Source: a virus
Taxonomy: Duplodnaviria > Heunggongvirae > Uroviricota > Caudoviricetes
Reading direction: 5' to 3' (one strand)
IMG/VR virus record: IMGVR_UViG_2579778982_000016
Coordinates: 1-18,115 of that record
Length of the DNA stretch: 18,115 bases
Translations under genes and position numbers: made by a program
In this document: in pieces, positions 3 to 17,787 of the stretch
How the letters are laid out: each line of letters begins with the position of its first letter
How positions within the stretch are numbered: position 1 is the first letter of the stretch
Notes under the pieces: model-generated
Databases searched by the model: none
Seen by the model: the letters and a program-made list of their open reading frames with translations, nothing else
Told to the model about the DNA's origin: nothing

Positions 3-1910
3 GCATCGGAAGCGTTAGCCGAAAAGATGAACGGCAAATTCCGCGCTGACTATCAGGAAACATCCGGTGGCGAAGCGTGTGATAACGCATTTGATGATGC
101 TGTAACGGGCGGATTCGGTTGTTTCCGCATGTGTGCCGATTACGAAGATGAAATGGATCCGAGTAACGAGCAGCGACGCATCAGCCTTCTTCCTGTTTAC
201 GACCCAGCGACATGCGTCTTCTTCGATCAGGACAGCAAGCAATATGACCGCTCTGATGCTATGTGGGCTATGGAAATGTTCTCCATGACGCCTAAAGCGT
301 TCGAGGCTGAATACCCTGATTCCATCGCGGCAAGCCTTTCTCGTGATGACACTGGCACTCAATATGACTGGTCAACGCCCGATGCCATCTATGTTGGACA
401 CTACTACGAAGTTCGCATAGAGAAGGTGAAGCTCACGGCGTGGCGCAACCCTGTTAGCGGAGAAATGGCAATCTATGATGAAGAGCAAATCAAAAATATT
501 GTCGACGAACTGACCGATGGTGCATTCGAACTGATTGGCGAGCGAACGGTGAAGAAACGCCGCGTTTATTGCGGCCTTCTGTCTGGCGCTGAATGGCTGG
601 AAGAACCGAAGCGTATTCCGGGCGAACATATTCCTCTCATCCCGGTATATGGGCGTCGCTCGTTTGTTGATAATCAGGAGCGAATCGAAGGCCACGCAGC
701 AAAAGCGATGGATGCACAGCGTCTTGAGAACCTGATGGTTTCCATGATTGCAGATAACGCCACTCAGGCTGGCGGCGATGGCATTCCTGTAGTTGATGTT
801 GACATGATTCCTGGTCCTCTTGCCACTCATTGGGCGGAGCGCAACAAAAAGCGCCCGGCGTTCCTGCCGATGGTCAGTCTGAAAAACAAAAACGGAGATA
901 TTACTGCGCAGGCTCAGGTCAGCAGTTATACACCTCCGACACAAATGCCTCCTGCTCTTGCCGGGCTATTGCAGTACACCGGAACGGCTATTCAGCAAAT
1001 TACAGGTGCGTCGCAGCTTGAGAACATGCCGAGCAACGTCGCTACCGATACCGTTGATAGCATCTTTAACCGGATGGACACGCAGTCCTATATCTACATG
1101 GACAACATGGCTAAATCCATGCGCCGTGCTGGCGTCGTGTGGCTTTCTATGGCTCGTGAAGTCTATGGCAGCGATACGCCAATGCGCATCGTTAATGAGG
1201 ATGGCAGCGATGACGTGGCGCTGATGAATGGTGAAGTGGTTGACCGTCAGACAGGGAAGGTTATCGCGCTTAACGACCTTTCGCAGGGTAACTATGAAGT
1301 GACTGTCGATGTCGGTCAGTCGTTCGCTACTCGCCGTGATGCAACGGTTAAGTCGTTGCTTTCCATGCTGGCACTTATCCCGCCAGGAACGCCGAAGCAT
1401 GACCTTGTATCGTCGATGATTCTCGACAATATGGACGGCGAAGGGATGGACGACCTTAAAGAATACAACCGCAATCAGTTGCTTCTGTCTGGCGTTATTA
1501 AGCCGAGAACACCAGAAGAACAGCAAATGGTTGAGCAGGCGAAACAACAACAGGCCAGTCAGCCAGATCCGGCTATGGTTGCTGCGCAAGGTCAGCTTCT
1601 TGCTGGTCAGGCTGAATTGCAGAAAGCGCAGAACGAACAGGCAGCCATTCAGGTTAAAGCATTCCAGGCACAGACTGATGCTCAGGTTGCAGCGGCAAAC
1701 GTTGTGAAAATCCTCGCATCTGCCGATAGCCAGCAGAAATCTGATATCCGCGAGGCTCTGAAACTGCTCGGACAGTTCCAGCAACAGCAAGGAGACAATG
1801 CCCGTGCTGATGCAGAGCTTGTCCTGAAAAGTCAGGCACAGGGTCATGCGCAGCGCATGGACATCAGCAGCATCCTGCAAAAATCAACTCAGCAACAACC
1901 ACAGCAGTAA
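3..1910 (+). CDS. portal protein (P22 gp1-like), 5'-truncated at window edge
   Basis: Frame is open from nt 3 with no stop, so the gene starts upstream of the window (roughly 100 codons missing by comparison with remembered P22 portal). Motifs KKRRVY...GEHIPLIPVYG and a Q/A-rich helical C-terminal tail match P22-type portals. Sits immediately before scaffold and coat. Confidence 0.9.
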   Translation, partial: ASEALAEKMNGKFRADYQETSGGEACDNAFDDAVTGGFGCFRMCADYEDEMDPSNEQRRISLLPVYDPATCVFFDQDSKQYDRSDAMWAMEMFSMTPKAFEAEYPDSIAASLSRDDTGTQYDWSTPDAIYVGHYYEVRIEKVKLTAWRNPVSGEMAIYDEEQIKNIVDELTDGAFELIGERTVKKRRVYCGLLSGAEWLEEPKRIPGEHIPLIPVYGRRSFVDNQERIEGHAAKAMDAQRLENLMVSMIADNATQAGGDGIPVVDVDMIPGPLATHWAERNKKRPAFLPMVSLKNKNGDITAQAQVSSYTPPTQMPPALAGLLQYTGTAIQQITGASQLENMPSNVATDTVDSIFNRMDTQSYIYMDNMAKSMRRAGVVWLSMAREVYGSDTPMRIVNEDGSDDVALMNGEVVDRQTGKVIALNDLSQGNYEVTVDVGQSFATRRDATVKSLLSMLALIPPGTPKHDLVSSMILDNMDGEGMDDLKEYNRNQLLLSGVIKPRTPEEQQMVEQAKQQQASQPDPAMVAAQGQLLAGQAELQKAQNEQAAIQVKAFQAQTDAQVAAANVVKILASADSQQKSDIREALKLLGQFQQQQGDNARADAELVLKSQAQGHAQRMDISSILQKSTQQQPQQ

Positions 1911-2000
1911 TTAACCCATAACGTGCAATGGCTGTCTTTATGAGGCCTGGCACCCTATTGCCTTCCGATGGGCTGAACATCGAGTAAACAGGGGTAACAA

Positions 2001-2894
2001 ATGGACCAGATGGCAGAAAACACACCAGAAGTTGAAATCGAAACCGATGCGTCAGAGCAGATTCCTGATGATGTCGAACTGGCTGAAGAAGTCGAAACAG
2101 AAGATGGCAGTGAGTCCTCCGGCAATGATGCAGAGGAAGCTACTGAAACTGATGGCGACGAATCAGAACAGGAATTCTACTTTGGTGACGAAAAGCTGGA
2201 TTCGCCAACCAGCGAAGATGGCGCAGAGCATGGACTGGTAAAACACCTGCGCAAGACGATTAAAGAGAAAGACCGCGAGCTGAAAGAGCTGATGCGTCAG
2301 TCTCAGAAACCCGTCGAGCAGCAGCCGGTAATAACTCAACCACCGCGAATGCCAAAACTGGATGATGAGGACATCGGTTTCGATGAAGAAATCTACCAGC
2401 AACGCATGGCTAAGTGGGCAGAGGATAACGGCAAGTACCAGCAACAGGAGATGGCTCGCAAGCAGAAGGAGCAGGAGCTTCAGGCTGCCTATCAAGAGCG
2501 ATTATCCAAATATCAGCAACGTGTTAAGGCTCTCAAAGTTCCTGGCTATCAGGAAGCAGAACAGGCCGTACTCGAGGAAATCCCCATCGAGACACAAAAC
2601 GCGATCCTGTTTGAGTCAGAGAAGCCGGAAATCGTTGTTCTGGCGCTCGGTCGCAACGCTGAACTGCGCAAGCAACTGGCAGAAGCTACCAACCCCGTAG
2701 CAATTGGTCGTCTGCTGGAACGTATCGAATCGAAGGCCAGAGTCATGCCAAAAGCAAAAACCACGGCAGCCACAACCCCGACAGTTAAGGGGAGCAACGG
2801 CGCAGTAATCAACAACCTCGGCAAATTGAAAGCCAAGGCGCTGGAAACTGGTGACTGGACGCCGTATTTCGCCGCTAAAAAGGCAAAAAAATAA
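2001..2894 (+). CDS. scaffolding protein (P22 gp8-like)
   Basis: 297 aa, between portal and coat as in P22. Strongly acidic low-complexity N-terminus, central charged coiled-coil-like region, basic C-terminus (AAKKAKK). GGGG motif precedes the ATG. Confidence 0.75.
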   Translation: MDQMAENTPEVEIETDASEQIPDDVELAEEVETEDGSESSGNDAEEATETDGDESEQEFYFGDEKLDSPTSEDGAEHGLVKHLRKTIKEKDRELKELMRQSQKPVEQQPVITQPPRMPKLDDEDIGFDEEIYQQRMAKWAEDNGKYQQQEMARKQKEQELQAAYQERLSKYQQRVKALKVPGYQEAEQAVLEEIPIETQNAILFESEKPEIVVLALGRNAELRKQLAEATNPVAIGRLLERIESKARVMPKAKTTAATTPTVKGSNGAVINNLGKLKAKALETGDWTPYFAAKKAKK

Positions 2895-2912
2895 CCTATC
2901 GGAGCATTAAAC

Positions 2913-4166
2913 ATGGCTAACCAATTAGCAAAAGACCTTGAAATCATGTTCGAAAACTACGTTGAAGGCTTTGAGGCCGCCTGCGTAGTTTCCCGTAACG
3001 CTAAAAAATTCCGTCCCGGTGATACAGCAATGCAGCGAGCAGGTGATGTTCTGTATCGTCCGCAGCATTACCACATGAACATTGAGGAAGGCCTAGACCT
3101 CAGCGGCAAAACGCCAACAGCACTGGTTCAGCGCCTTGTTCCTTCTGTGTTCAAGGAGCCGAAAAACATTCTGTACACTCTGGATGCGCGTGAAATGCGT
3201 GACCCGGAACATAAAACTGAAGCTGGTCGCGCCGCAGGTATGCGCCTTGCTGCACAGATTGACTCTGACCTGATTTCCATGGTCACGCAGCGTGCTACTA
3301 ACGTGATCACAATGGCTGACTCAACCACTGGTTCACAGGGTCGTGATTTGTGGAACTGTGCGGCAGGTATTGATGCCACCATGACGGCGATTGGTGTACC
3401 ACAGGGTATCAACCGCCGCTCTTTCTGGAACCCCTTCAACTACAAAGACCTTGCTGGCGAGCTTGGTCACCGTGCCTATGCTCAGGGCGCAACCCTGACA
3501 GCATACGAAAAAGCGCAGATCCCTCCGGTTGCGTCCTTCGATAGCTACAAGACCGATATTTCTGGTCGTGTTCCGAAGGGTACAGCAACTTCCATTACGC
3601 TGGCAGCAGCACCTGCGCACAAGGTTGAAGCGAAAGATGCTAACGAAATGCCAGTGGATAACCGACAGGGGACCATTACGGTATCTGCTGAAGGTTTGCA
3701 GGTTGGCGATGCGTTTACCATCGCAGGGGTGAATTCCGTACACCAGATCACCAAAGATACCACCGGGCAGCCGCAGGTATTCCGCGTTCTGGCAGTTAGC
3801 GGAACGACAGTAACTATCTCCCCGAAAATTCTGCCGCCTGACAACGCGGATGTCGCCAGCCGTCCATATGCAAACGTTGATGCTAATGCGGCAAGTAGCG
3901 CAGCAATCACCATTCTCAACAAAAATGCCGCACCGGCTAACCTGTTCTGGGCTGATGGTTCTGTTGAACTGATGTACGGCAAACTGGCGTTCCCGACTGG
4001 TCAGGGTCCACAGGTAATGACAGCAACCACCGAGCAGGGCGCTACACTGATCATGTCTTACGCCTTCGACCACATCAAAGGCGTAACCACTGCGCGTTTC
4101 ACCACTCTGTACGGTTGCTCTGTACTGGTTCCTGAATATACGGGCATCGTTATTGCCGGGCAGTAA
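2913..4166 (+). CDS. major capsid (coat) protein, P22 gp5-like
   Basis: 417 aa, directly after scaffold, GGAG RBS 9 nt upstream. Length and several segments (e.g. ANLFWADGS, PYANVDAN) resemble remembered P22/Sf6-type coat proteins. Followed by a strong intrinsic terminator. Confidence 0.88.
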   Translation: MANQLAKDLEIMFENYVEGFEAACVVSRNAKKFRPGDTAMQRAGDVLYRPQHYHMNIEEGLDLSGKTPTALVQRLVPSVFKEPKNILYTLDAREMRDPEHKTEAGRAAGMRLAAQIDSDLISMVTQRATNVITMADSTTGSQGRDLWNCAAGIDATMTAIGVPQGINRRSFWNPFNYKDLAGELGHRAYAQGATLTAYEKAQIPPVASFDSYKTDISGRVPKGTATSITLAAAPAHKVEAKDANEMPVDNRQGTITVSAEGLQVGDAFTIAGVNSVHQITKDTTGQPQVFRVLAVSGTTVTISPKILPPDNADVASRPYANVDANAASSAAITILNKNAAPANLFWADGSVELMYGKLAFPTGQGPQVMTATTEQGATLIMSYAFDHIKGVTTARFTTLYGCSVLVPEYTGIVIAGQ

Positions 4167-8127: not shown

Positions 8128-9513
8128 ATGGCTACGTGGCAACAGGGTATTAATTCTGGTGGTTTTCTGGCTGGCATCGGTACGCAAAATGAGAATGCGC
8201 CAAAGGCAAGCGACATTAACGCAACGCTTGGTCTGATCCGCGAAAACAATGAACTGGCTCGCTCAGGTGCAAATAACGTTGGTCTGACCGCGTTACGTGG
8301 TCTGGCTGGAGTTGCTGATATTTACAATCAGGAACAGCAACAGAAAGCTATTAGTGCGTTCAATAAGGTTCACGCTGATGCATGGGCTTCTGGTGATCCA
8401 TCGGGACTATTTAAGTTTGCCCAGGAAAATCCAGCGTTTGTTGCACAGGCACAACAGGCGTTTTCCGGTCTTAATGATCAGCAACGCAACGATATGGGCG
8501 ATTTAGCCATGAGGGCTAACGTCGCTCTTTCTCAGGGACCGGAAGCCTACAGTAAATTCATTACTGACAACAAGGACAGGTTAAATCGCGTGGGTGCGAA
8601 TGCTGACTGGATGATTCAGACAGGTATCCAGAATCCAGAGCAGCTATCACACATGCTGACTACTATGTCTCTCGGTGCGCTTGGACCAGAAAAGGCGTTT
8701 GCTGTTCAGGACAAGATGGCTGGTCGTGAAATTGACCGAGGCAGACTGGCAGAGACAATCCGCAGCAATCAGGCTGGAGAAGCACTTCAGGCGAGAGGGC
8801 AAAACCTTTCCTATCAGTCAGCAATGACTGGACACGGACTTGCAGCAGAAAGACTGGCACTTGATAAGCAGAAATTCGGTTTTGAAGTACAACAGGCACA
8901 AAAGAAGGCCGATGAACTTATTAATGCTGCGCCAAAACTATCCGTGAACATGGAAAAGGCTATAGAAAAATCAGCAGGTGATGCGGCAGCTAGTCGTAAT
9001 GCTGCCGATTCAATGACAACGCTTGCTGACACGCTTGAGAAGGAGAAGCCAACTCCTGGTTTGTTCGGTAACGCTGAAAATATGTTCTCTAAGCTTACGG
9101 GGCAAGATAACTACCTCCGAGATGTGCGGATTAGATTCAACCAACTAGCCAATGCGCAGGCAACCAAGCTTCTCCCTCCCGGCCCTGCATCAGATAAGGA
9201 TATTGAGTTTGCAAGGAAAGGCATTCCAAGCGAAACGGATAATCCAATGGTTATGGCTCGATGGTTAAGGGGTATGGCAAAAATGGAAAGTAATAACGCG
9301 AAATTCAACGAGTTTAGGTCAGAGTGGATGAGTGCAAACGGCAGCCCAGGACAATCTGATCGCAACCGAAACATCATGGGGATGGATGTTAAGAAGGGTG
9401 AATCATTGAACTCTGCGGCAAAACGTTTTCTTTCCTCAAGTTATGGCGATAGCCAACCTCAACAGCAATTGTCCGATGACGAATTAATTAGCAAATATCT
9501 CGGAGGGCAGTAA
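8128..9513 (+). CDS. ejection (injection) protein, P22 gp20-like
   Basis: 461 aa; second ejection-protein position; TAATG overlap with the next gene. Confidence 0.75.
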
Positions 9514-11339
9514 TGGCTTATAGTCGTGAACAATTGATGACGGCGTTAAGGAATGCTGATGCTGCTGGTGATACTGAGGGAGCACGTCGCATTGCTCAGA
9601 TGCTGTCTTCTGGTGATCAATCCACTCAAAACCAATCGCAGCCAGAAGAACAATCTCTGGTAGGAAAAGCTACTGACTGGCTCACTGGTGGTCAAAGTGC
9701 AGGGCAAATTGCTGAACAGGCTGGTCGTGGTCTGGTAAACATACCATTTGACGTATTGCAGGGTGGTGCAAGTCTGATTAATGCAATCAGCCAGGGGCTT
9801 GGTGGCCCAAAGGTTTTGGATGATGTTTATCGTCCAGTAGACAGACCGACAGACCCCTACGCTCAAGCTGGAGAAACAATTGGCGGGTATTTAGTTCCAG
9901 GAGTTGGAACGGCAGGAAGCATGGCTATTGGATCACTGGCAGAAGCCGCAAATCAGAAAGGCGATTTCGCGCAAAATGCAGCAAGAAACGCCGGAGTTAA
10001 CCTTGCCGCTCAGGGGGTTCTTTCCGCAGCAGCAAAGGGAATAGGGCGTGGAATAACGGCTATAAAAGGTGATATTGCGCCAGAAGTGGCGAAGAAAATT
10101 GCCACATCAGAATCGATGGGCGTGACACCAATGACATCTGATGTTATCCCGCCGAAAAATGCTTTCACTCGCGGCCTTACTCAGGATGCCGAGGGGGCTT
10201 TGCTCGGGACAGGCTCAAAGCGAGCTGAGCAATATGCAACGCGTAGTAAGCTGGTAAGTAATTATTTTGACCGTTTTGGTGAGTACAACCCTGATGATGT
10301 GGTGAAATCTCTGACCACCACGTTAAGGGGGCGGAAGGATGCCGCTGGCGCTGTTATCAATGACGTCACCAATAAAATGGGTAATGCCGCAGTTGATACC
10401 ACAAATACCATGAATGCTCTGAATACAGCGATCGCAAGACAGGAACGGCTTGGGACGTCTGCCAATCAAAGCCTGCTTACATCCTTGCGTAACCTACGTG
10501 AAGAATTAGCAAACCCTGCAACTGATTTGGATGTTACGTTTGATCTCTTGCGTCAGCACAGAACAGCATTTAGATCTAATGTTCAGGGAGATGCTATGGT
10601 CTTCCCCAACCAGGCAAAAGCAGCTACCAATATGGTAGAGAATGCAATGTCAAAAGACCTTCGTAACGCAGTTGCTAAAAACCTCGGTGCATCAGACGCA
10701 GCAAAATACCTTAAAGCAAATTCCGATTATGCAAACGTTTATAATAAGGTGCTTAATAAAAACATTGCTAACAAGCTCAACAAGGCAAGCAGTGAAGCCA
10801 GTCCTGAACTTATAAATACCGTTGTATTAAGCAGAAAACCATCTGACGTTAAACGAATCTGGAGCGCATTGGATGATAATGGGAAAGATGCTATGCGTGC
10901 AGCTTACGTCAGCAAAATAGCGGAAAAGGCCGGGGACTCTCCAGCCAAGTTCATCACTGAAGTTAATAAGCTGAAATCTCAGTCAGGCGGTGAAATTTAC
11001 AACACTATTTTTTCTGGAAAGCACATGAAAGAGCTTGATGCTCTTCATGAAGTTCTACAGCAAACAGCAAGGTCAGACACCGCAAATGTAGTAACTCAGA
11101 CGGGGCAATCGCAAGCCAACAGGATAAGGACGATTGGCGCAACTGCGACTCTTGGGGCAACACTGGCGCTTGAATCTGGTTTCGGTGCAATGATGCGCTT
11201 GTATGAATCCAAAGCCGCAAGGAATGCGCTCTTACGTCTGGCAAACACTAAAGCTGGAACGCCAGCCTATGAAAGAGCGCTGAATAACGCCGCAAATGCC
11301 ATCAGACCAATACTTGCCAATGATGCAACTGATCGCTAA
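9513..11339 (+). CDS. ejection (injection) protein, P22 gp16-like
   Basis: 608 aa against a remembered ~609 aa for P22 gp16; third ejection-protein position; last gene of the conserved late block. Confidence 0.8.
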
Positions 11340-11360: not shown

Positions 11361-11999
11361 TTAATTGCGAATGGAATCGCGGAACTCTTTACTTGATAGA
11401 AAAGGATCTGTTCTCCTTAACTCATCATAGTTTTTATTAAACTTTCTTGCTTCACCAGGGTATCTGTTGAACAAAACATTGCAGAAAAAAGAGAGCAATA
11501 ACTCACATATGAATGCTAATATCCTGAAAAATAAAGGTATAAAAAGAAGGAAAGGTTCATTGAAGTCTCTATTCCAAACAAAATAGACAATCATCCCGAC
11601 ATACCAAATTGATATCCCTATACTGATGATTGTTCCAACAGAGGTAACTACGATCCCGATTAAGTCGGACAGTCTGTTTGCCAGTAACTCATTTGAGTAT
11701 CTTGCAATCATATACCGCCAACATTTTGCAATATCATCCTGATCTGTAGAGTCTTCTGGAATGGCTAGGCTTCTACATATTGAAGCAGCTCTTTTTTTCT
11801 CAACTCTTTTTGAGAGCCATCCATTAAAGAGATACATCAACACCTGCGTTGCTATTCCTGCACCAAGTGATATCAAAGACATCCCCAAAAATCGCCACCC
11901 TGGAGATAGTGACTGGTACTGCCAAACAAAAAAAATTAAAAAACCTAATGATCCTATGACATAGGCTGATGTATCGCTATATATATCTATTTTTTTCAT
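11361..11999 (-). CDS. multi-pass inner-membrane protein, candidate superinfection-exclusion protein (sieA-like by position)
   Basis: ATG at 11999 (complement) preceded by GGAGTGG with 7-nt spacer; the tracked ORF's upstream extension lacks an RBS. About 4 hydrophobic helices (AYVIGSLGFLIFFVWQ, FLGMSLISLGAGIATQVLMYLF, IGIVVTSVGTIISIGISIWYVGMIVYFVW, FLLFIPLFFRILAFICELLLSFFCNVLF). AT-rich, opposite strand, convergent on gp16. Occupies the slot where P22 carries sieA. Confidence 0.6.
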   Translation of the reverse strand: MKKIDIYSDTSAYVIGSLGFLIFFVWQYQSLSPGWRFLGMSLISLGAGIATQVLMYLFNGWLSKRVEKKRAASICRSLAIPEDSTDQDDIAKCWRYMIARYSNELLANRLSDLIGIVVTSVGTIISIGISIWYVGMIVYFVWNRDFNEPFLLFIPLFFRILAFICELLLSFFCNVLFNRYPGEARKFNKNYDELRRTDPFLSSKEFRDSIRN

Positions 12000-12066
12000 T
12001 GAGTAGCCACTCCTTAGTTTTGAGCAGGATACCAGATGATAATGTGTAGTTGGAGTAGCGCGGTTG

Positions 12067-12160
12067 TAATGCAAGCATTTTGTTTTAGTTTTATGCTTGC
12101 TTGTATGTGTGTACAGTGCATATAATGCAAGCATACATCACAACAAAGGTGCTTGCATTA
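12067..12160. promoter_or_regulatory. divergent promoter/operator region with repeated inverted repeats
   Basis: TAATGCAAGCAT occurs at 12067-12078 and 12123-12134, each followed 14-15 bp later by its inverted complement (ATGCTTGC at 12093-12100; TGCTTGCATTA at 12150-12160). Sigma70-like -35 TTGCTT (12097-12102) and -10 TATAAT (12121-12126), 18-bp spacer, point at the 12160 gene. Confidence 0.55.
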
Positions 12161-13146
12161 TGACTGAAAAGAAAAGTGGCGAAGGGAAAGCTAAGGGTGG
12201 GATCGCTCGCGCAAAGTCGCTGACTAAAGAGCAGCGTTCTGAAATAGCAAAGAAAGCAGCGGCAAAACGATGGGAAGGTAAGCCACTAAGAGCGATCAGA
12301 AAGGGTAACTTCATTGATGATTTCGGCATTGATGCAGAATGTTACGTACTTGATGATAATGATAAAACGGTTGTAGTTAGTAAAACTGGTCTGGCTAAAT
12401 TACTAGGAATCGGTGAGCATGGTAGGGATGTAGACCGTTTTCTAAATACGAATTATATGGCTGATTTTGTCGATCCATTTTTGCTAGAAAAATTCAAAAA
12501 ACCTCTTATTTTTCAATGGAGAAGTCCGGTCCCAAACTCAGCCCCAAATCCACTCGCTGATGAGGCTCACGGTTACGATATTGCCCTTATCGGCGATATA
12601 GCCACAGCAATGATTAATGCCGATCGAGCTGGCGCTCTACCGCCTTCAAGATCAAAATCTGCCAGCCTTGCCCAAAGACTTGTTACCGCATCAATGAAAG
12701 CAGGGCTTAAAGGACTTGGTTATGCTATTGCAGGATATCGACCTGAAGTACAGGAGGTTATTGATTCCTTCAAGGCCTTTGTTCGTGAAGAGGCGAGGCA
12801 GTATGAAAAAGAATTTCCAGATGAGCTATATGAGGAGTGGTATCGACTGTACGGCCTGAACAGGCCAGAGAAAGGACGTCCAATTCGTTTTGGGCAGCTA
12901 ACCAACATGCAGATATACACTCCTCTAGCAAAGAGTAAAGGTAAAATCCTTGAACAGATTCGAGCCAGCCGAGACGAGAACGGAAAACAATCTGATAAGT
13001 TGCACCTGTTCCTTTCTGAAATTGGTGTCAAGGCTTTGCGTCAGCATATCGGTAAGCTTCTTGGTGTCGCAGCGATGAGCGAGACAAGAGAAGAATACGA
13101 AAAAGGAATCGAAAAGGTTTTTGGAAGAATAAAACCAGAAATCTAA
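12160..13146 (+). CDS. hypothetical protein (328 aa) with basic N-terminal motif, possibly P63C-domain family
   Basis: ATG at 12160 preceded by AAAGG; the tracked TTG start at 12097 lies inside the promoter repeats. N-terminus KGGIARAKSLTKEQRSEIAKKAAAKRWEG resembles a short basic motif I recall at the start of phage proteins annotated P63C; family assignment unverified. Confidence 0.6.
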   Translation: MTEKKSGEGKAKGGIARAKSLTKEQRSEIAKKAAAKRWEGKPLRAIRKGNFIDDFGIDAECYVLDDNDKTVVVSKTGLAKLLGIGEHGRDVDRFLNTNYMADFVDPFLLEKFKKPLIFQWRSPVPNSAPNPLADEAHGYDIALIGDIATAMINADRAGALPPSRSKSASLAQRLVTASMKAGLKGLGYAIAGYRPEVQEVIDSFKAFVREEARQYEKEFPDELYEEWYRLYGLNRPEKGRPIRFGQLTNMQIYTPLAKSKGKILEQIRASRDENGKQSDKLHLFLSEIGVKALRQHIGKLLGVAAMSETREEYEKGIEKVFGRIKPEI

Positions 13147-13153
13147 TTATGAA

Positions 13154-13176
13154 CCCACCTGACGGTGGGTTTTTTA
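13154..13176 (+). terminator. rho-independent terminator
   Basis: CCCACC-tgac-GGTGGG hairpin followed by TTTTTT, 8 nt after the stop of the 328-aa gene and immediately before the next gene's RBS. Confidence 0.75.
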
Positions 13177-13374: not shown

Positions 13375-13451
13375 GGCGTGATGGTAATCCTTGCTCACTA
13401 AATTTAAAGATGCGAATCTTTCCGGCCATAGGAGTAATCATGATTTACCCA

Positions 13452-13988
13452 TCAAACAACCCACCAGTTTGCCTGATTGGATACCAGCCTTGCAGTTTTT
13501 ATGGAATTAATTATGCCATGCTCAAGAGCCTTGTTAGCATCCAAAATGGTCGAGTCTGCTATCAGGGATGCCCACCTAATATGGGTTCCGATGTCGATAT
13601 TGAACGTCTCAACGAAGCGATCAAGATCGTTATCGAGGCATTTCCCGTACTCTCTCAATCTGGCATGGTCGGCGGCTGGGGTGGCAAAGCCCCATAATAG
13701 AGGATGTAACAGGAATCTTGATAATGGGTTTGCGAAACGTTCTGAGCCAGCCAGGAAAACGATATTAGCTATGGATTCAACATTGCTTATGTTGTGAGTT
13801 CTAACGGTAACAGGGAGTGACTTAAGAAAGTTATACGCAGTAAAGCCAGCGGCAGTTTCCCCTCCCTGACTTGATATATGGATATTTAATTCAGTTGCGC
13901 CTTGAGATAATGCGGTGAGACAGTGGTTCTGAAGTTGCCCAACAGTGGCGGTGTTAACGGGGCATAAGAAATGAATTGTGTGCAGCAT
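13452..13988 (-). CDS. ClpP-fold serine protease-like protein (178 aa)
   Basis: Translation aligns by eye along its length with E. coli ClpP core: IHISSQGGETAAGFTAYNFL vs INSPGGVITAGMSIYDTM; VRTHNISNVESIANIVFLAG vs [20 protein letters not shown] (catalytic Ser aligned); FLLHPLLWG vs VMIHQPLGG (catalytic His aligned); TILDANKALEHGIINSI vs FLSAPEAVEYGLVDSI. Start ATG overlaps the mnt stop (ATAAATAATG) with AAGGA upstream. Confidence 0.65.
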   Translation of the reverse strand: MLHTIHFLCPVNTATVGQLQNHCLTALSQGATELNIHISSQGGETAAGFTAYNFLKSLPVTVRTHNISNVESIANIVFLAGSERFANPLSRFLLHPLLWGFATPAADHARLREYGKCLDNDLDRFVETFNIDIGTHIRWASLIADSTILDANKALEHGIINSIKTARLVSNQANWWVV

Positions 13989-14236
13989 TATTTATCATCC
14001 TTACCATACATGGTTTTCAGCGTCTCCAGCAGCGCCTCTTTGAATTTGTCAGCTTCTTGCTGAGCAAATGACTCAACTGACTTTGGCGACCTATCTTCAT
14101 CAATCGCGGCTTGCAAAATCATGACGATCTCGGAGTTAACAGAGCGACCATTTTTTGATGCTCTAACAGCAAGAGCCTCGCGCAAAGATTCAGGGATTCT
14201 TACCGTAGTTGGAGAAATTGACACACCCTTTGCCAT
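13988..14236 (-). CDS. mnt: Mnt-like ribbon-helix-helix repressor
   Basis: 82 aa; N-terminal RHH with the NGRSVNSEI signature shared with P22 Mnt (NGRSMNSEL) and Arc; charged C-terminal helix for oligomerisation; divergent from arc-ant as in P22 immI. Confidence 0.8.
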   Translation of the reverse strand: MAKGVSISPTTVRIPESLREALAVRASKNGRSVNSEIVMILQAAIDEDRSPKSVESFAQQEADKFKEALLETLKTMYGKDDK

Positions 14237-14503: not shown

Positions 14504-14673
14504 TTCGCTTGGATGCAGTAGTCAAAGAGATTGCGATTACCATTTTAAGACCAAATTTTGTTCATGGCGAATCATTTGGCACGAACGAAAAATTGAGAAG
14601 AGAAAGAGTATTCAGTGGCAAGCGCACGTTTTCAGAAGTGATGCTTGATGCGGCAAAGAAATCAAAACAGTGA
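14500..14673 (+). CDS. possible small ORF (57 codons, GTG start) in the arc-ant intergenic region
   Basis: GTG at 14500 overlaps the arc stop (GTGTGA), with GAGGGGG 8 nt upstream. Frame is open for 57 codons to TGA at 14671-14673. Below the ORF-track length cutoff. No homology recognised; could be non-coding spacer hosting a sar-like antisense RNA. Confidence 0.25.
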
Positions 14674-14735
14674 AGCCCCAACTGCTGGAACAGTCAGGGC
14701 TTCGGTTGTCGGTAAATCCGTGGAGAAAAACCAAC

Positions 14736-15638
14736 ATGAATAGTATAGCAATTTTAGAAGCAGTGAACACCTCTTACGTGCCATTCAACGGTCAGCAAAT
14801 TATCACCGCCATGGCTGCCGGAGTTGCATATGTTGCGATGAAGCCAATCGTTGAAAACCTCGGAATGAGCTGGTCAACGCAGCAAACAAAACTCATGAAG
14901 CAGATTAGCAAATTCAACTGTGTTCATATGAACATGGTTGCCGCTGATGGTAAGCTTCGTAAGCTACTCTGCCTTCCTTTGAAGAAGTTAAATGGATGGC
15001 TGTTCAGCATCAACCCTGAGAAAGTTCGTGCTGACATCCGCGATAAACTGATTCAGTACCAGGAAGAATGCTTTACTGTGCTGCATGACTACTGGACAAA
15101 GGGAGAGGCAGCAAATGCACGGAAGAAAACATCTGTTGATGACAGGACTCCGCTTCGTGATGCTGTAAATATGCTAGTCAGCAAAAAGCATCTAATGTAC
15201 CCAGAAGCTTATGCAATGATTCATCAGCGTTTCAATGTGGAAAGTATTGAAGAGCTTGATGCATCTCAGATACCACAAGCAGTAGAGTACATCCACAGGG
15301 TAGTGCTTGAAGGTGAGTTCATCGGCAAACAAGAGAAGAAAACCAACGAGCTTTCTGCAAAAGAAGCAAACAGCCTTGTATGGCTATGGGATTATGCCAA
15401 CCGCTCACAGGCATTATTCCGCGAACTGTATCCGGCGCTAAAACAAATTCAATCGAACTATTCCGGCAGATGCTACGACTACGGTCATGAATTCTCGTAT
15501 GTTATCGGAATGGCGAGAGACGTTTTAATAAACCACACACGAGATGTTGATATTAATGAACCAGACGGACCAACGAATCTTTCCGCATGGATGAGACTTA
15601 AGAATAAAGAATTACCTCCTTCAGTACATAACTACTGA
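14736..15638 (+). CDS. ant: antirepressor Ant
   Basis: ATG at 14736 gives 300 aa starting [21 protein letters not shown], which matches my recollection of P22 Ant in sequence and length; follows arc as in immI. The tracked GTG start at 14670 is probably an artefactual extension. Confidence 0.85.
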
Positions 15639-15738: not shown

Positions 15739-17787
15739 ATGACAGACATTACAGCCAATGTTGTAGTAAGCATGCCTTCGCAACTCTTCACTATGGCTCG
15801 TTCTTTTAAAGCCGTAGCCAATGGCAAAATTTATATCGGTAAAATTGACACGGACCCGGTAAATCCTGAAAACCAGATTCAGGTTTATGTAGAGAATGAA
15901 GACGGTTCTCACGTTCCTGTTCCGCAACCAATCATCATTAACGCCGCTGGATATCCGGTATATAACGGACAGATTGCCAAGTTCGTAACTGTGCAAGGCC
16001 ATTCTATGGCTGTTTATGATGCGTATGGTTCGCAGCAGTTCTACTTTCCTAATGTGCTGAAGTATGATCCGGATCAGCTAAGACATGAGCTAGCGTCGGA
16101 AGCGGGAACAACTTTAATAGGGAAGGGTGATCGAACTCTTGAAGAGTACTTAGAATCAAGCAAGGAAGATTTTGATAACTCATGGAAGAGATATGTAGGT
16201 AAATCTACAACGACACAAAAAGATAGCGCATACTCTGGAGCGGCTCACTACCAACCAGTTAGCGATGATGGGAGCGCAATTGGTAATTATACATTTGAAT
16301 CACCGGTGATTGTTGACTTCTCATCTACATCAGATTGTGTTATGCCAGATTCTGGTGTCGTTTTCAAAATGGGAGCTAATGGACTTACAAGTGGTAATTA
16401 TTTTTCTCAAGATAATTACCACTTAAAAAATGTAACGGCAATTGGCGGCACTCCTGAAATTGTTACATTTGAACCATACACAGGATTGACAGCACTAGTA
16501 GATGGTGTTCGCATTATAAATAATGGCTCTCCAGACAAGACCGCTATTAATTTTAAAGGACAGAACTGGTGGCCTACAGTATCTAATAATATATTTAAAG
16601 ATTATACAGATAAAAGAGGAAATTTTTGCAAGGCAATAGATGACGGAGGAGATTTATCTATAAGAAGGAGTGGGAATAGTAGATTGCTTTTCACTGGAAA
16701 TAAAGTCTACTTTGGTGGGGATGCTCTTGGTGGTACGATGTTGAAAGCCAGCGCTGTCTTTAATATTATAAAAGATAATGCCTGTGAACACGGAGAGAAC
16801 GCGATTGTGTTTGAGTACCCATCATCATTCTCAGTTGTCGACGGACTTTACACAGAATGTTCTTTTGGTGGTGGTAATCAGATAGTAATTGGTGACAAAG
16901 AACCTGATCCTAATATTGCAACAATGAATATGATTGGAATAACTATTAAGAATGTTTATTTCAATAATCATTCACATTCATCAAATAGGCTAATCAAATC
17001 TGGAAATGAAACCGTAAGAATAGACAGGTTAATTGTTGATAATATAATTGTCACAAATGCAAATGTTGCATCGCCAGTTATTGAGTTGAATGATGTTCCC
17101 GGGCAATCGATTTGTGTCGGAAATGTATACTCTGGAGTTTCACTAATAAATAAAACAAGCAATGCTGTAAAAATAATAGATATGAATAATAATTTTATTA
17201 AATCGCTAAATGGTAATTTAGCGTCTTCGGGGGGGGACTCCGCAACAGTAAATAATTCTAGAGAAAAAGTATTTGGTAACTTTTTTATTCAATCAACAGG
17301 AAGTTTGTCAGTTAGCAGATATGCAAGTGGTAATCAGTATCAAAAAAATAGAGAGTCAAAGAACTACGCGGCTATAACCATAGTTCCTAATACTTCGTGC
17401 GGTTTTGAGTGGCAGAACCCAAGATATTCAGACCTATCTGGATCTATAGCAACAGTTCAGTTTCTAGCCAAAGCAAGCACTACAGTGAGTGCAGTAGTTT
17501 TAGTTAAATACAAGAACAGTTCTGGAGGTGACACGCTTGCAGCATCATCAATTAGTATTAATGGTGGTGATTTTCAGGAGTTTACTATTCCATTCTTTGC
17601 TAACCGCAATGATGATGATGATTCTGTTCTCTCTGTTGATATTAGATTTGAAAATACATTATCAAGCATTGTTTTTTATGTTTGTGCTTTTAGATTAAAC
17701 AGGGGGGATACAGGACTATGCCGGTCTGCTAATGATTATACGACAGGAGAGATTGATGCAGAGATATCAAAATTCACATTTTATTAA
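15739..17787 (+). CDS. tailspike protein: P22 gp9-type head-binding N-domain fused to a divergent receptor-binding domain
   Basis: First ~113 aa ([60 protein letters not shown]...[11 protein letters not shown]) are near-identical to the remembered P22 tailspike head-binding domain. The remaining ~570 aa are unrelated to P22 gp9, AT-rich, with beta-helix-like G/N/V/I-rich repeats. GGAG RBS upstream. Confidence 0.9.

What the first reader, a model, noticed from the sequence alone, without database searches (positions are those of the whole stretch)
12067..12162. Two direct copies of a 12-bp motif, each paired with its inverted complement, overlapping the -35, -10 and start codon of the 328-aa gene
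TAATGCAAGCAT occurs at 12067-12078 and 12123-12134. Its inverted complement follows each copy after 14-15 bp, and the second partner ends exactly at the ATG (12160). The motifs overlap a TTGCTT/TATAAT promoter. This looks like a pair of dimer-binding operators controlling the divergent membrane-protein and 328-aa genes. In RNA the second repeat could instead fold into a hairpin that sequesters the RBS and start codon. The regulator could be the 328-aa protein itself or a phage repressor.
Basis: seen in the sequence. Interest (0 to 1): 0.55.

Follow-up and report, generated by a model that had tools for sequence, protein, structure and literature searches.

The report
Conserved four-box operator at a phage gene
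The repeats are real: they are four copies of a 10-bp box built into the promoter and start site of an uncharacterised phage gene, an arrangement kept almost unchanged from E. coli phages to soil bacteria, and most likely the sites where the gene's own protein shuts it off.

Summary
TAATGCAAGCAT occurs exactly at 12067-78 and 12123-34. The second copy has a perfect 12-bp inverted partner ending in the ATG. The first copy has only an 8-bp partner.

The unit is a 10-bp box, ATGCAAGCAT, present four times in alternating orientation (12069-78, 12093-102, 12125-34, 12149-58). Box 2 holds the -35 hexamer. Box 3 abuts TATAAT and covers the predicted transcription start. Box 4 fills the gap between the ribosome-binding site and the ATG.

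The same array, with the same box sequence and spacing (about 22/33/22 bp), precedes homologues of the 328-aa P63C-domain protein in 35 of 44 genome loci from many phyla. It also abuts 77 of 120 motif matches in viral contigs.

Deviations in the boxes are not compensated, so an RNA stem is not the selected feature. The boxes track the protein's N-terminal basic module (KGGxARA...RW), even when that module is fused to a RhuM-family body.

Best reading: an operator array embedded in the promoter, bound by the gene's own product. Binding was not tested. Control of the divergent membrane-protein gene is not supported. Only read-through late transcripts could form the hairpin that hides the start codon.

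It is a new member of a known kind.

The parts
12069..12078 (+). Box 1 (ATGCAAGCAT). It is the most upstream box, about -65 to -56 relative to the predicted transcription start.
   Evidence: Sequence. The equivalent box lies near -86 from the ATG in 66 of 76 non-redundant homologous loci.
12093..12102 (-). Box 2 (ATGCTTGCTT on the + strand, 8 of 10 to the reverse box ATGCTTGCAT). It contains the -35-like hexamer.
   Evidence: Box 2 is conserved as ATGCTTGCat at about 2 bits per core position.
12097..12102 (+). The -35-like hexamer TTGCTT, separated by an 18-nt spacer from the -10.
   Evidence: Sequence. In the main spacing class, TTGC inside box 2 lies 17-18 nt from TAnnAT. In the short class a TTGACA lies just 5' of box 2, at 17 nt. 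The hexamer was not called by the consensus scan.
12121..12126 (+). The -10 hexamer TATAAT. Its last two bases are the first two bases of box 3.
   Evidence: T at -6 and A at -5 are conserved in front of box 3 (47 and 49 of 63 loci) but not in front of box 1.
12125..12134 (+). Box 3 (ATGCAAGCAT). It spans the -10/+1 region, with the predicted transcription start near A12133.
   Evidence: The transcription start is inferred from the usual distance of about 7 nt after the -10. It has not been mapped.
12145..12149 (+). Shine-Dalgarno sequence AAAGG, in the spacer between boxes 3 and 4.
   Evidence: The consensus aGGa lies immediately 5' of box 4 in homologous loci.
12149..12158 (-). Box 4 (GTGCTTGCAT on the + strand). 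It fills the spacer between the Shine-Dalgarno sequence and the ATG.
   Evidence: The core of box 4 starts 7-10 nt before the start codon in nearly all loci.
12160..13146 (+). Gene for the 328-aa P63C-domain protein. Residues 9-38 form the conserved basic module KGGIARAKSLTKEQRSEIAKKAAAKRW, the candidate box-binding part.
   Evidence: Pfam PF10546, E = 9e-14, and phrog_2384. There are 1421 homologues. The N-terminal module is the best conserved segment.
13152..13175 (+). Intrinsic terminator closing the cassette: AACCCACC, loop tgac, GGTGGGTT, followed by a T run.
   Evidence: Read directly from the sequence. The fold is -15.8 kcal/mol. The terminator scan did not list it.
11361..11999 (-). 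Divergent SieA-like membrane-protein gene. It is a neighbour and not part of the module.
   Evidence: phrog_7745. Other prophages have different genes at this position next to the same box module.

Best explanation
The element is a promoter with an operator array built into it. It belongs to a self-contained cassette, roughly 12057-13175, made of boxes plus promoter, the 328-aa P63C-domain gene and a terminator.

Four 10-bp boxes (consensus aTGCAAGCAy, each nearly palindromic as ATGC-AA-GCAT) lie in alternating orientation. Their centres are 23, 33 and 23 bp apart, which is about 2, 3 and 2 turns of the DNA helix, so all four face the same side.
- Box 2 carries the -35 hexamer.
- Box 3 abuts the -10 hexamer and covers the transcription start.
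- Box 4 lies between the ribosome-binding site and the ATG.

The most likely mechanism is that a sequence-specific protein occupies the boxes, probably cooperatively, and blocks RNA polymerase. That protein is most probably the cassette's own product, acting through its N-terminal basic module, so the gene holds its own level down.

Shown here: the boxes, their positions, their conservation across phyla, their link to the gene family and to the N-terminal module, and the absence of compensatory changes.

Inferred: the promoter and transcription start, the identity of the binder, and repression as the direction of regulation.

A likely side effect is that late-operon transcripts reading through from gp16 contain all four boxes. 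These would fold so that the start codon is buried, whereas the gene's own mRNA would not.
For: Conservation
- The same four boxes occur at about -86, -64, -31 and -8 from the ATG in homologues of 42-85% protein identity. These come from Enterobacterales, Beta-, Alpha- and Deltaproteobacteria, Acidobacteriota, Verrucomicrobiota and others.
- 35 of 44 loci found through the protein alone have the box 3, box 4, start codon layout. The rest are fragments, contig ends or variant arrangements.
- 66 of 76 non-redundant upstream regions have all four boxes.
- Box cores carry 1.8-2.0 bits per position, against 0.1-0.3 bits in the spacers.

Association seen from the DNA side
- Of 120 viral-contig matches to TGCAAGCA-N13-17-TGCTTGCA, 77 abut a gene of this family.
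- The other 43 look like chance hits inside unrelated ORFs.

DNA geometry
- The modal spacing is 21-23, 32-33 and 21-23 bp.
- A variant class has 23 instead of 33 bp between boxes 2 and 3, exactly one helical turn less. It carries a TTGACA just 5' of box 2, so the 17-nt promoter spacer is kept.

Promoter
- TAnnAT is conserved in front of box 3 only, and aGGa in front of box 4.

Not an RNA stem
- Core deviations in the downstream pair (boxes 3 and 4): 13 break pairing, 4 give a wobble pair, 0 are compensated.
- Core deviations in the upstream pair (boxes 1 and 2): 31 break pairing, 10 give a wobble pair, 3 are compensated.
- Complementarity of the flanks is no better within a locus than between loci.
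- Box 1 is flipped in two loci.

Identity of the binder
- The array travels with the gene whatever lies next to it: SieA here, an IS1-like transposase, Bro-N proteins or nothing.
- Residues 9-38 are the most conserved segment of the protein.
- Three distinct RhuM-family proteins (four viral loci) carry the same N-terminal module and all have boxes upstream. The 28 RhuM relatives without the module have none.
- A complete related prophage has no other box array, so the only visible target is the gene's own promoter.
Against: - There is no binding, footprint, transcription-start or expression data for any member of the family.
- The N-terminal module has no Pfam or NCBIfam model and is predicted with low confidence (pLDDT 34-55).
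- The protein model has no convincing structural relative, so DNA binding by this protein is unproven.
- The boxes and the first 40 codons are contiguous DNA. Their co-occurrence in the RhuM fusions could reflect co-inheritance as one recombination unit and need not mean they work together.
- The -35 hexamer is weak (3 of 6) with an 18-nt spacer, and the scan did not call the promoter.
- Some variants are one-sided: box 4 is TGCTTACA in at least 6 loci, and boxes 1 and 3 are both GCAGGCA in two loci. Forward and reverse boxes are therefore not fully equivalent, which a simple symmetric-dimer model does not explain.
- In the insertion-sequence loci a second small protein carries the same module and could be the real binder there. 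The window has no such gene.
Confidence: 0.6

Rival explanations
1. RNA fold-back structure. The inverted repeats are selected to form hairpins in RNA that hide the ribosome-binding site and start codon. In read-through late-operon transcripts this would keep the gene silent unless it is transcribed from its own promoter, as in IS10 and IS50.
For: - The fold of 12060-12200 is -50.8 kcal/mol with z = -5.5.
- With a 5' end at or before 12060, the AUG is unpaired with probability 0.01. With a 5' end at 12133 it is 0.71.
- The cassette lies in the path of rightward late transcription, between gp16 and the tailspike gene.
- The -10 hexamer lies inside the 5' arm, the same layout as in IS10.
Against: - The box sequence is invariant across phyla and does not covary.
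- 44 of 61 core deviations break pairing, 14 give a wobble pair and only 3 are compensated.
- Flank complementarity equals the between-locus control.
- Box 1 is flipped in two loci.
- Boxes 1 and 2 lie upstream of the predicted promoter.
- The spacing changes by one helical turn, which matters for DNA but not for RNA.
- There is no Rfam match above noise.
- The array is equally conserved in chromosomal and insertion-sequence contexts that have no late operon.
- The fold probably happens as a by-product, but it does not explain the conservation.
Confidence: 0.1
2. The boxes are operators for a different regulator acting in trans: a phage repressor (Mnt, Arc or the C2 type), a host factor, or a small module-bearing protein encoded elsewhere.
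For: - Mnt-like and Arc-position genes lie 2 kb downstream.
- In the insertion-sequence relatives a separate protein of 57-100 aa carries the same KGG...RW module.
Against: - The array is kept in loci that have no immI genes, no phage and no transposase.
- The prophage in L167 has the module but no mnt, arc or ant genes.
- No second module-bearing ORF exists in the window.
- A host factor shared from Enterobacterales to Acidobacteriota with one invariant 10-bp site is implausible.
Confidence: 0.12
3. Same binder, opposite sign. The boxes recruit the gene's own product as an activator (positive feedback), or box 1 activates while boxes 3 and 4 repress.
For: - The -35 hexamer is weak (3 of 6), which is typical of activator-dependent promoters.
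- Box 1 lies at about -60, a classical activator position.
Against: Boxes 3 and 4 cover -10/+1 and about +17 to +26. Bound proteins at those positions normally block initiation or act as roadblocks. The short-spacing class has a consensus TTGACA and so does not need an activator.
Confidence: 0.1
4. The boxes are recombination or transposition sites left over from the IS1-like elements that carry this gene family.
For: About 14 of 37 distant loci pair the gene with an IS1-family transposase. In one genome the pair forms a four-copy 2.5-kb insertion sequence.
Against: - The boxes lie in the middle of that element, not at its ends.
- Its terminal repeats have a different sequence (GGTAGTGnnTCAGTTTGAA).
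- No such repeat is present in the window.
- The boxes are kept where no transposase gene is present.
Confidence: 0.03

Closest known systems
Lambdoid and P22 operator arrays (OR/OL bound by cI/C2 and Cro; Omnt and Oarc in the P22 immI region)
   Same: Several copies of a short inverted-repeat site overlap the -35, -10 and +1 of a promoter. They lie on one face of the helix and allow cooperative repression and autoregulation. The element sits in the same genome region as immI, between gp16 and the tailspike gene.
   Different: - The box sequence is unrelated.
- The boxes are 10 bp long and spaced 2-3 turns apart, not adjacent 17-21-bp operators.
- The presumed binder is neither a helix-turn-helix repressor nor a ribbon-helix-helix protein, but an unclassified basic N-terminal module.
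- The array and its sequence are conserved far beyond phages, across phyla.
Autoregulated moron, toxin-antitoxin and defence-gene cassettes, where a promoter with a palindromic operator is bound by the cassette's own product
   Same: A self-contained unit of promoter, operator, gene and terminator inserted in a prophage late region. The operator has no other copy in the phage.
   Different: This cassette has a single gene and no partner antitoxin. The protein's function is unknown, and it matches no PADLOC model.
Fold-back inhibition of IS10 and IS50 transposase translation
   Same: The gene's own promoter lies inside the 5' arm of an inverted repeat whose 3' arm covers the start codon. Only transcripts that enter from outside can form the hairpin.
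   Different: Here the repeat sequence is conserved and pairing as such is not selected. There are four boxes with helical phasing. The effect is probably a by-product.
IS1 InsA, an insertion-sequence repressor that binds sites overlapping the promoter of the element's transposase
   Same: Relatives of this cassette ride in IS1-like elements. There, related palindromes (ATGCTT-N6-AAGCAT) also overlap the transposase promoter.
   Different: InsA binds the terminal repeats, whereas these boxes are internal. The window contains no transposase.

Membership tests
Sigma-70 promoter | A -10 hexamer close to TATAAT | tested here: met
   TATAAT lies at 12121-12126. TAnnAT is conserved at the same place in 47-49 of 63 homologous loci, and is absent in front of box 1.
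Sigma-70 promoter | A -35 hexamer close to TTGACA, 16-18 nt upstream of the -10 | tested here: inconclusive
   TTGCTT matches 3 of 6 positions with an 18-nt spacer, and the scan did not call it. Across loci a TTG motif always lies 17-18 nt from TAnnAT, and the short-spacing class has a perfect TTGACA.
Sigma-70 promoter | A mapped transcription start | not testable with these tools
   No transcript data are available. The start near 12133 is predicted.
Palindromic operator of an autoregulated gene | Inverted-repeat sites overlapping the core promoter or the start of the transcript | tested here: met
   Boxes 2, 3 and 4 cover the -35, the -10/+1 and the spacer between the ribosome-binding site and the ATG.
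Palindromic operator of an autoregulated gene | The site sequence is conserved, and not merely the ability to pair | tested here: met
   Box cores carry 1.8-2.0 bits per position. Of 61 core deviations only 3 are compensated. Flank pairing equals the between-locus control.
Palindromic operator of an autoregulated gene | The sites co-occur with the regulator gene in different genomic contexts | tested here: met
   35 of 44 protein-ascertained loci have the layout. 77 of 120 motif-ascertained loci abut the gene. RhuM-family proteins have boxes only when they carry the N-terminal module.
Palindromic operator of an autoregulated gene | Spacing consistent with binding on one face of the DNA helix | tested here: met
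   The spacing is 21-23, 32-33 and 21-23 bp. The variant class differs by 10 bp.
Palindromic operator of an autoregulated gene | Demonstrated binding and repression by the gene product | not testable with these tools
   This needs gel-shift, footprinting and reporter assays.
Cis-regulatory RNA hairpin that occludes the start codon | Both arms lie within the gene's own transcript | tested here: not met
   The predicted start at the end of box 3 leaves the 5' arm untranscribed. An RNA starting at 12131 has no significant structure (z = -0.23). This rests on the predicted transcription start.
Cis-regulatory RNA hairpin that occludes the start codon | Compensatory base changes that preserve the stem | tested here: not met
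Cis-regulatory RNA hairpin that occludes the start codon | A match to a described RNA family | tested here: not met
   Rfam returns only sub-threshold microRNA-like noise, with best scores of 27.6 bits against gathering thresholds of 119.
Intrinsic terminator (considered for the 12122-12161 hairpin) | A G+C-rich stem followed by a T run | tested here: not met
   The stem is followed by GACTGAAAAG, and the scan did not list it.
Terminal inverted repeats of an insertion sequence | Located at the ends of the element and similar to the element's terminal repeats | tested here: not met
   In the four-copy element the ends are GGTGGTGCATCAGTTTGAA and its inverted copy, with 8-bp target duplications, while the boxes are internal. 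The window has no match to the terminal repeat.
P63C-domain protein family (the gene product) | A match to Pfam PF10546 above its gathering score | tested here: met
   52.3 bits against a cut-off of 26.1, residues 205-292. The full length matches phrog_2384 at E = 1.4e-92.

The most novel reading that the evidence does not exclude
The roughly 30-residue N-terminal peptide KGGxARAxxLTxEQRxEIAxKAAxxRW is a previously undescribed, portable nucleic-acid-binding module that recognises the box ATGCAAGCAT. Together with the four-box promoter it forms a self-regulating unit of promoter, operator and N-terminal peptide. This unit has been grafted onto unrelated effector bodies (the P63C family and the RhuM family). 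It is spread across bacterial phyla by IS1-like insertion sequences and by P22-like phages, and in the insertion sequences the same module may also govern the transposase promoter.
Probability: 0.4. Interest if true: 0.7.

Novelty: new member of a known kind. Interest (0 to 1): 0.55.

Why it matters
P63C-domain proteins are common in prophages and mobile elements. This search found 1421 homologues, but none has a known function or known regulation, and the full-text library holds only three papers that mention the domain, each once.

A cis-element kept nearly base-for-base between E. coli phages, Gallionella, Acidobacteriota and Verrucomicrobiota is unusual for an operator. It gives a direct experimental handle on the family: a defined 100-bp fragment and a 30-residue candidate binding module.

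It also shows that the gene is an independently regulated cassette inside the late operon of P22-like phages. It links that cassette to a family of IS1-like insertion sequences that carry passenger genes. Finally, it offers a compact, apparently host-independent autoregulatory promoter that could be reused.

Tried and rejected
- **Rfam search of 11900-12400.** Only sub-threshold microRNA-like hits, the usual result for any long hairpin.
- **Consensus promoter and terminator scan.** It called neither the TTGCTT/TATAAT promoter nor the terminator at 13152-13175, both of which are visible by eye. I kept them on comparative and folding grounds.
- **Family libraries.** PADLOC and NCBIfam gave no match for the protein. 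Pfam and NCBIfam have no model for the N-terminal module.
- **A false lead.** A sub-threshold Pfam hit to 'CSLinker' turned out to be an algal Rubisco-linker motif and was discarded.
- **Literature searches.** Searches for 'P63C', 'P63C domain', the box sequence and IS1/ISMhu11 found nothing on regulation.
- **Stem covariation.** I looked for it in the flanks and in the cores and found none.
- **Remnant of an insertion sequence in the window.** None found.
- **A leftward promoter for the SieA-like gene inside the box region.** None found.
- **Rejected as binders.** Mnt, Arc, C2 and host factors, because the array is conserved outside phages. The transposase, because the boxes are internal to the element and persist without it.
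Full report
**Context**

The window is the late region of a P22-like podovirus or prophage of E. coli or Salmonella. The rightward genes include the DNA-transfer protein gp16 (9513-11339), Ant (14670-15638) and a tailspike with the P22 head-binding domain (15739-17787). A Mnt-like ribbon-helix-helix gene (13988-14236) and a SieA-like membrane-protein gene (11361-11999) lie on the minus strand.

The finding lies in the 160-bp gap between the SieA-like gene and a 328-aa gene (12160-13146). The product of that gene carries a P63C domain (PF10546, E = 9e-14) and matches phrog_2384 over its full length. Neither family has a known function.

**The observation**

The sequence is as described. TAATGCAAGCAT is exact at 12067-78 and 12123-34. 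The second copy is part of a perfect 12-bp inverted repeat (12122-33 with 12150-61) that runs into the ATG. The first copy has only an 8-bp partner at 12093-100.

The 12-mer occurs nowhere else in the window. The promoter hexamers TTGCTT and TATAAT are present with an 18-nt spacer. The consensus scan rejects them because the -35 hexamer matches only 3 of 6 positions.

**What the unit really is**

Comparison with relatives changes the picture from two hairpins to four boxes. I searched with the 328-aa protein (1421 homologues) and fetched 44 genome loci that encode relatives of 42-85% identity. They come from Enterobacterales, Beta-, Alpha- and Deltaproteobacteria, Acidobacteriota, Verrucomicrobiota and other groups.

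Nearly all of these loci carry the same sequence upstream, and not merely a hairpin. The box is aTGCAAGCAy, in the order forward, reverse, forward, reverse, at about -86, -64, -31 and -8 from the start codon.
- 35 of the 44 loci have the box 3, box 4, start codon layout. The other nine are gene fragments, contig ends or variant arrangements that still contain boxes.
- Among 76 non-redundant upstream regions, genome and viral loci together, 66 have all four boxes. The modal spacing is 21-23, 32-33 and 21-23 bp, and box 4 starts 7-10 nt before the ATG.
- Box cores carry 1.8-2.0 bits per position. The spacers carry 0.1-0.3 bits.

In the window the boxes are 12069-78, 12093-102, 12125-34 and 12149-58, spaced 23, 33 and 23 bp. 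Each box is itself nearly palindromic (ATGC-AA-GCAT).

**Association seen from the DNA side**

I scanned viral contigs for TGCAAGCA-N13-17-TGCTTGCA. Of these, 77 abut a gene of this family. The other 43 lie inside unrelated ORFs with no gene start next to them, as expected for chance matches to 16 specified bases in a very large collection.

In a complete related prophage (L201, 49 kb) the array occurs only at this gene. The three other lone 10-mers with one mismatch are at chance level, where shuffles give 2.9. The motif is therefore not a dispersed repeat, and the gene's own promoter is the only visible target.

**Promoter**

Aligned on box 3, the positions six and five bases upstream of the box core are T (47 of 63 loci) and A (49 of 63). 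With the AT that begins the box, this makes TAnnAT. The same positions in front of box 1 are not conserved.

In the main spacing class, the TTGC inside box 2 lies 17-18 nt upstream of this hexamer. Four loci have 23 instead of 33 bp between boxes 2 and 3. These four carry a perfect TTGACA directly 5' of box 2, which again gives a 17-nt spacer.

The promoter is thus kept in both classes. The difference between the classes is one helical turn, which matters for proteins on DNA and not for RNA.

The transcription start is predicted at the last A of the box 3 core, near 12133. This gives a 27-nt leader with the Shine-Dalgarno sequence (AAAGG, consensus aGGa) directly before box 4. All of this is inference. 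No transcript data exist.

**DNA site or RNA stem**

The region folds well as RNA (-50.8 kcal/mol, z = -5.5). Selection for pairing is not visible, however.
- Deviations from the core consensus in boxes 3 and 4: 13 break pairing, 4 give a wobble pair, none is compensated.
- Deviations in boxes 1 and 2: 31 break pairing, 10 give a wobble pair, 3 are compensated.
- Complementarity of the flanking bases within a locus matches the between-locus control. The best case is 94 against 82.5 +/- 5.7, and the other comparisons are not significant.
- Box 1 is flipped in two loci.
- An RNA that starts at the predicted transcription start has no significant structure (z = -0.23).
- Rfam has no matching family.

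Sequence invariance at 45% protein identity, helical phasing and uncompensated deviations all point to sequence-specific protein binding on DNA.

**Who binds**

The array follows the gene whatever its neighbours are. The neighbour is a SieA-like gene here and an unrelated 134-aa gene in phage 611R6. In about 14 distant loci it is an IS1-family transposase. In two loci (L003, L025) the nearest upstream gene encodes a Bro-N protein, and in other loci there is no neighbouring gene at all.

The left edge of the module in E. coli prophages lies near 12057. The short block 12010-12047 occurs on its own upstream of other leftward genes.

Within the protein, residues 9-38 (KGGIARAKSLTKEQRSEIAKKAAAKRW) are the best conserved segment. 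In 51 distant homologues they are 63% identical, against 38-55% for the other segments.

A natural experiment supports a link between this module and the boxes. Four viral loci (three distinct sequences) encode RhuM-family proteins (PF13310) that carry the same N-terminal module in place of the usual RhuM N-terminus. All four have boxes upstream in the same promoter layout. The 28 RhuM relatives without the module have none, apart from two that each have one isolated 7-mer core about 120 nt upstream.

The caveat is that the boxes and the first 40 codons are contiguous DNA and could simply be inherited together. The module has no Pfam or NCBIfam model. The structure model is poor in that segment. 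No structural relative was found. I therefore put the identity of the binder at roughly 55-60%.

**Mechanism proposed**

The cassette's product binds the four boxes, which lie on one face of the helix over about 90 bp. It occludes the -35, the -10/+1 and the early transcribed region, and so limits its own synthesis.

The cassette ends in an intrinsic terminator at 13152-13175. It therefore looks like a self-contained moron inside the late operon.

A physical side effect is likely. Late transcripts that enter from gp16 contain all four boxes and bury the start codon, with a probability of being unpaired of 0.01. The gene's own mRNA leaves the start codon open, at 0.71. This is the same geometry as fold-back inhibition in IS10, but it does not explain the conservation.

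**What is not supported**

A phage repressor as the binder is not supported. Joint control of the SieA-like gene is not supported either: no leftward promoter was found, and the source of leftward transcription remains open.

**Novelty**

Promoter-embedded palindromic operators and autoregulated prophage cassettes are well known. This box, its four-fold architecture, its conservation across phyla and the candidate binding module are not described in the libraries or papers I could search. I rate it a new member of a known kind, with a more novel reading still open: a portable module-plus-operator unit fused to different effector proteins.

Noticed in passing
L020, L021, L022, L031 (about 1476-3992 in each); also L006, L008, L016, L018, L026, L027, L037, L038, L053: The gene family is a passenger of an IS1-like insertion sequence. 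In a Kaistiaceae genome a 2.5-kb element is present in four identical copies. Its terminal repeats are GGTGGTGCATCAGTTTGAA and its inverted copy, with 8-bp target duplications; two copies have swapped flanks, which indicates an inversion between them. The element carries a divergent DDE_Tnp_IS1 transposase gene, the P63C-family gene and a small third gene. The end sequence GGTAGTGnnTCAGTTTGAA recurs in several phyla.
   Followed up: partly
L020 3471-3785 (-); P0123-P0220: Small proteins of 57-100 aa end in the same KGGxARA...RW module that begins the 328-aa protein. In the insertion-sequence loci, this is the third gene. Some NCBI records name such proteins 'RNA-binding protein', but no Pfam or NCBIfam model matches them.
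   Followed up: partly
L138/L168/L169, L099/L170, L171: These loci encode RhuM-family (PF13310) proteins that carry the same N-terminal module and the same boxes upstream. The 28 other RhuM relatives have neither.
   Followed up: yes
L020 about 2390-2410 and 3920-3940; L032; L038: A second kind of palindrome with the same core, ATGCTT-N6-AAGCAT, overlaps a TTGACA-N17-TATATT promoter directly upstream of the transposase start codon, which suggests a leaderless mRNA. In L020 and L038 it also lies upstream of the third-gene region.
   Followed up: partly
window 13152-13175: A clear intrinsic terminator follows the 328-aa gene: AACCCACC, loop tgac, GGTGGGTT, then a T run (-15.8 kcal/mol). The consensus terminator scan did not list it.
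   Followed up: yes
window 13410-13697 (+) and 13452-13988 (-): Two ORFs on opposite strands overlap by about 245 bp, and both match families: phrog_7758 (unknown function) on the plus strand and a ClpP-like protease (PF00574) on the minus strand. The protease ORF abuts the Mnt-like gene at 13988, so the two may be co-transcribed leftward. One of the two overlapping ORFs is probably not a real gene.
   Followed up: no
window 12010-12056; L166 1501-1538: A 40-47-bp block that contains the ribosome-binding site of the leftward gene is shared by many E. coli prophages. It occurs upstream of different leftward genes, with or without the P63C module, and behaves like a portable junction.
   Followed up: partly
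window 11361-12134 (-); L001 2665-3069 (-): The longest leftward ORF in the window starts at an ATG inside box 3. In phage 611R6 the annotated leftward CDS starts at an ATG inside box 1. Both are probably over-extended, because a GGAG ribosome-binding site precedes the ATG at 11999 in the window.
   Followed up: no
L004, L005, L008, L012, L018, L051 (box 4); L004, L019 (boxes 1 and 3): Some box variants recur on one side only. Box 4 is TGCTTACA in several lineages. Boxes 1 and 3 are both GCAGGCA in two loci while boxes 2 and 4 keep the consensus. Forward and reverse boxes are therefore not fully equivalent. This is unexplained.
   Followed up: no
L167 (NZ_CP148579.1), L201 (NZ_CP083512.1): In some E. 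coli prophages the P63C cassette is followed directly by the tailspike gene, or by a single Arc-family gene, with no ant gene. The cassette and the immI genes therefore assort independently.
   Followed up: no
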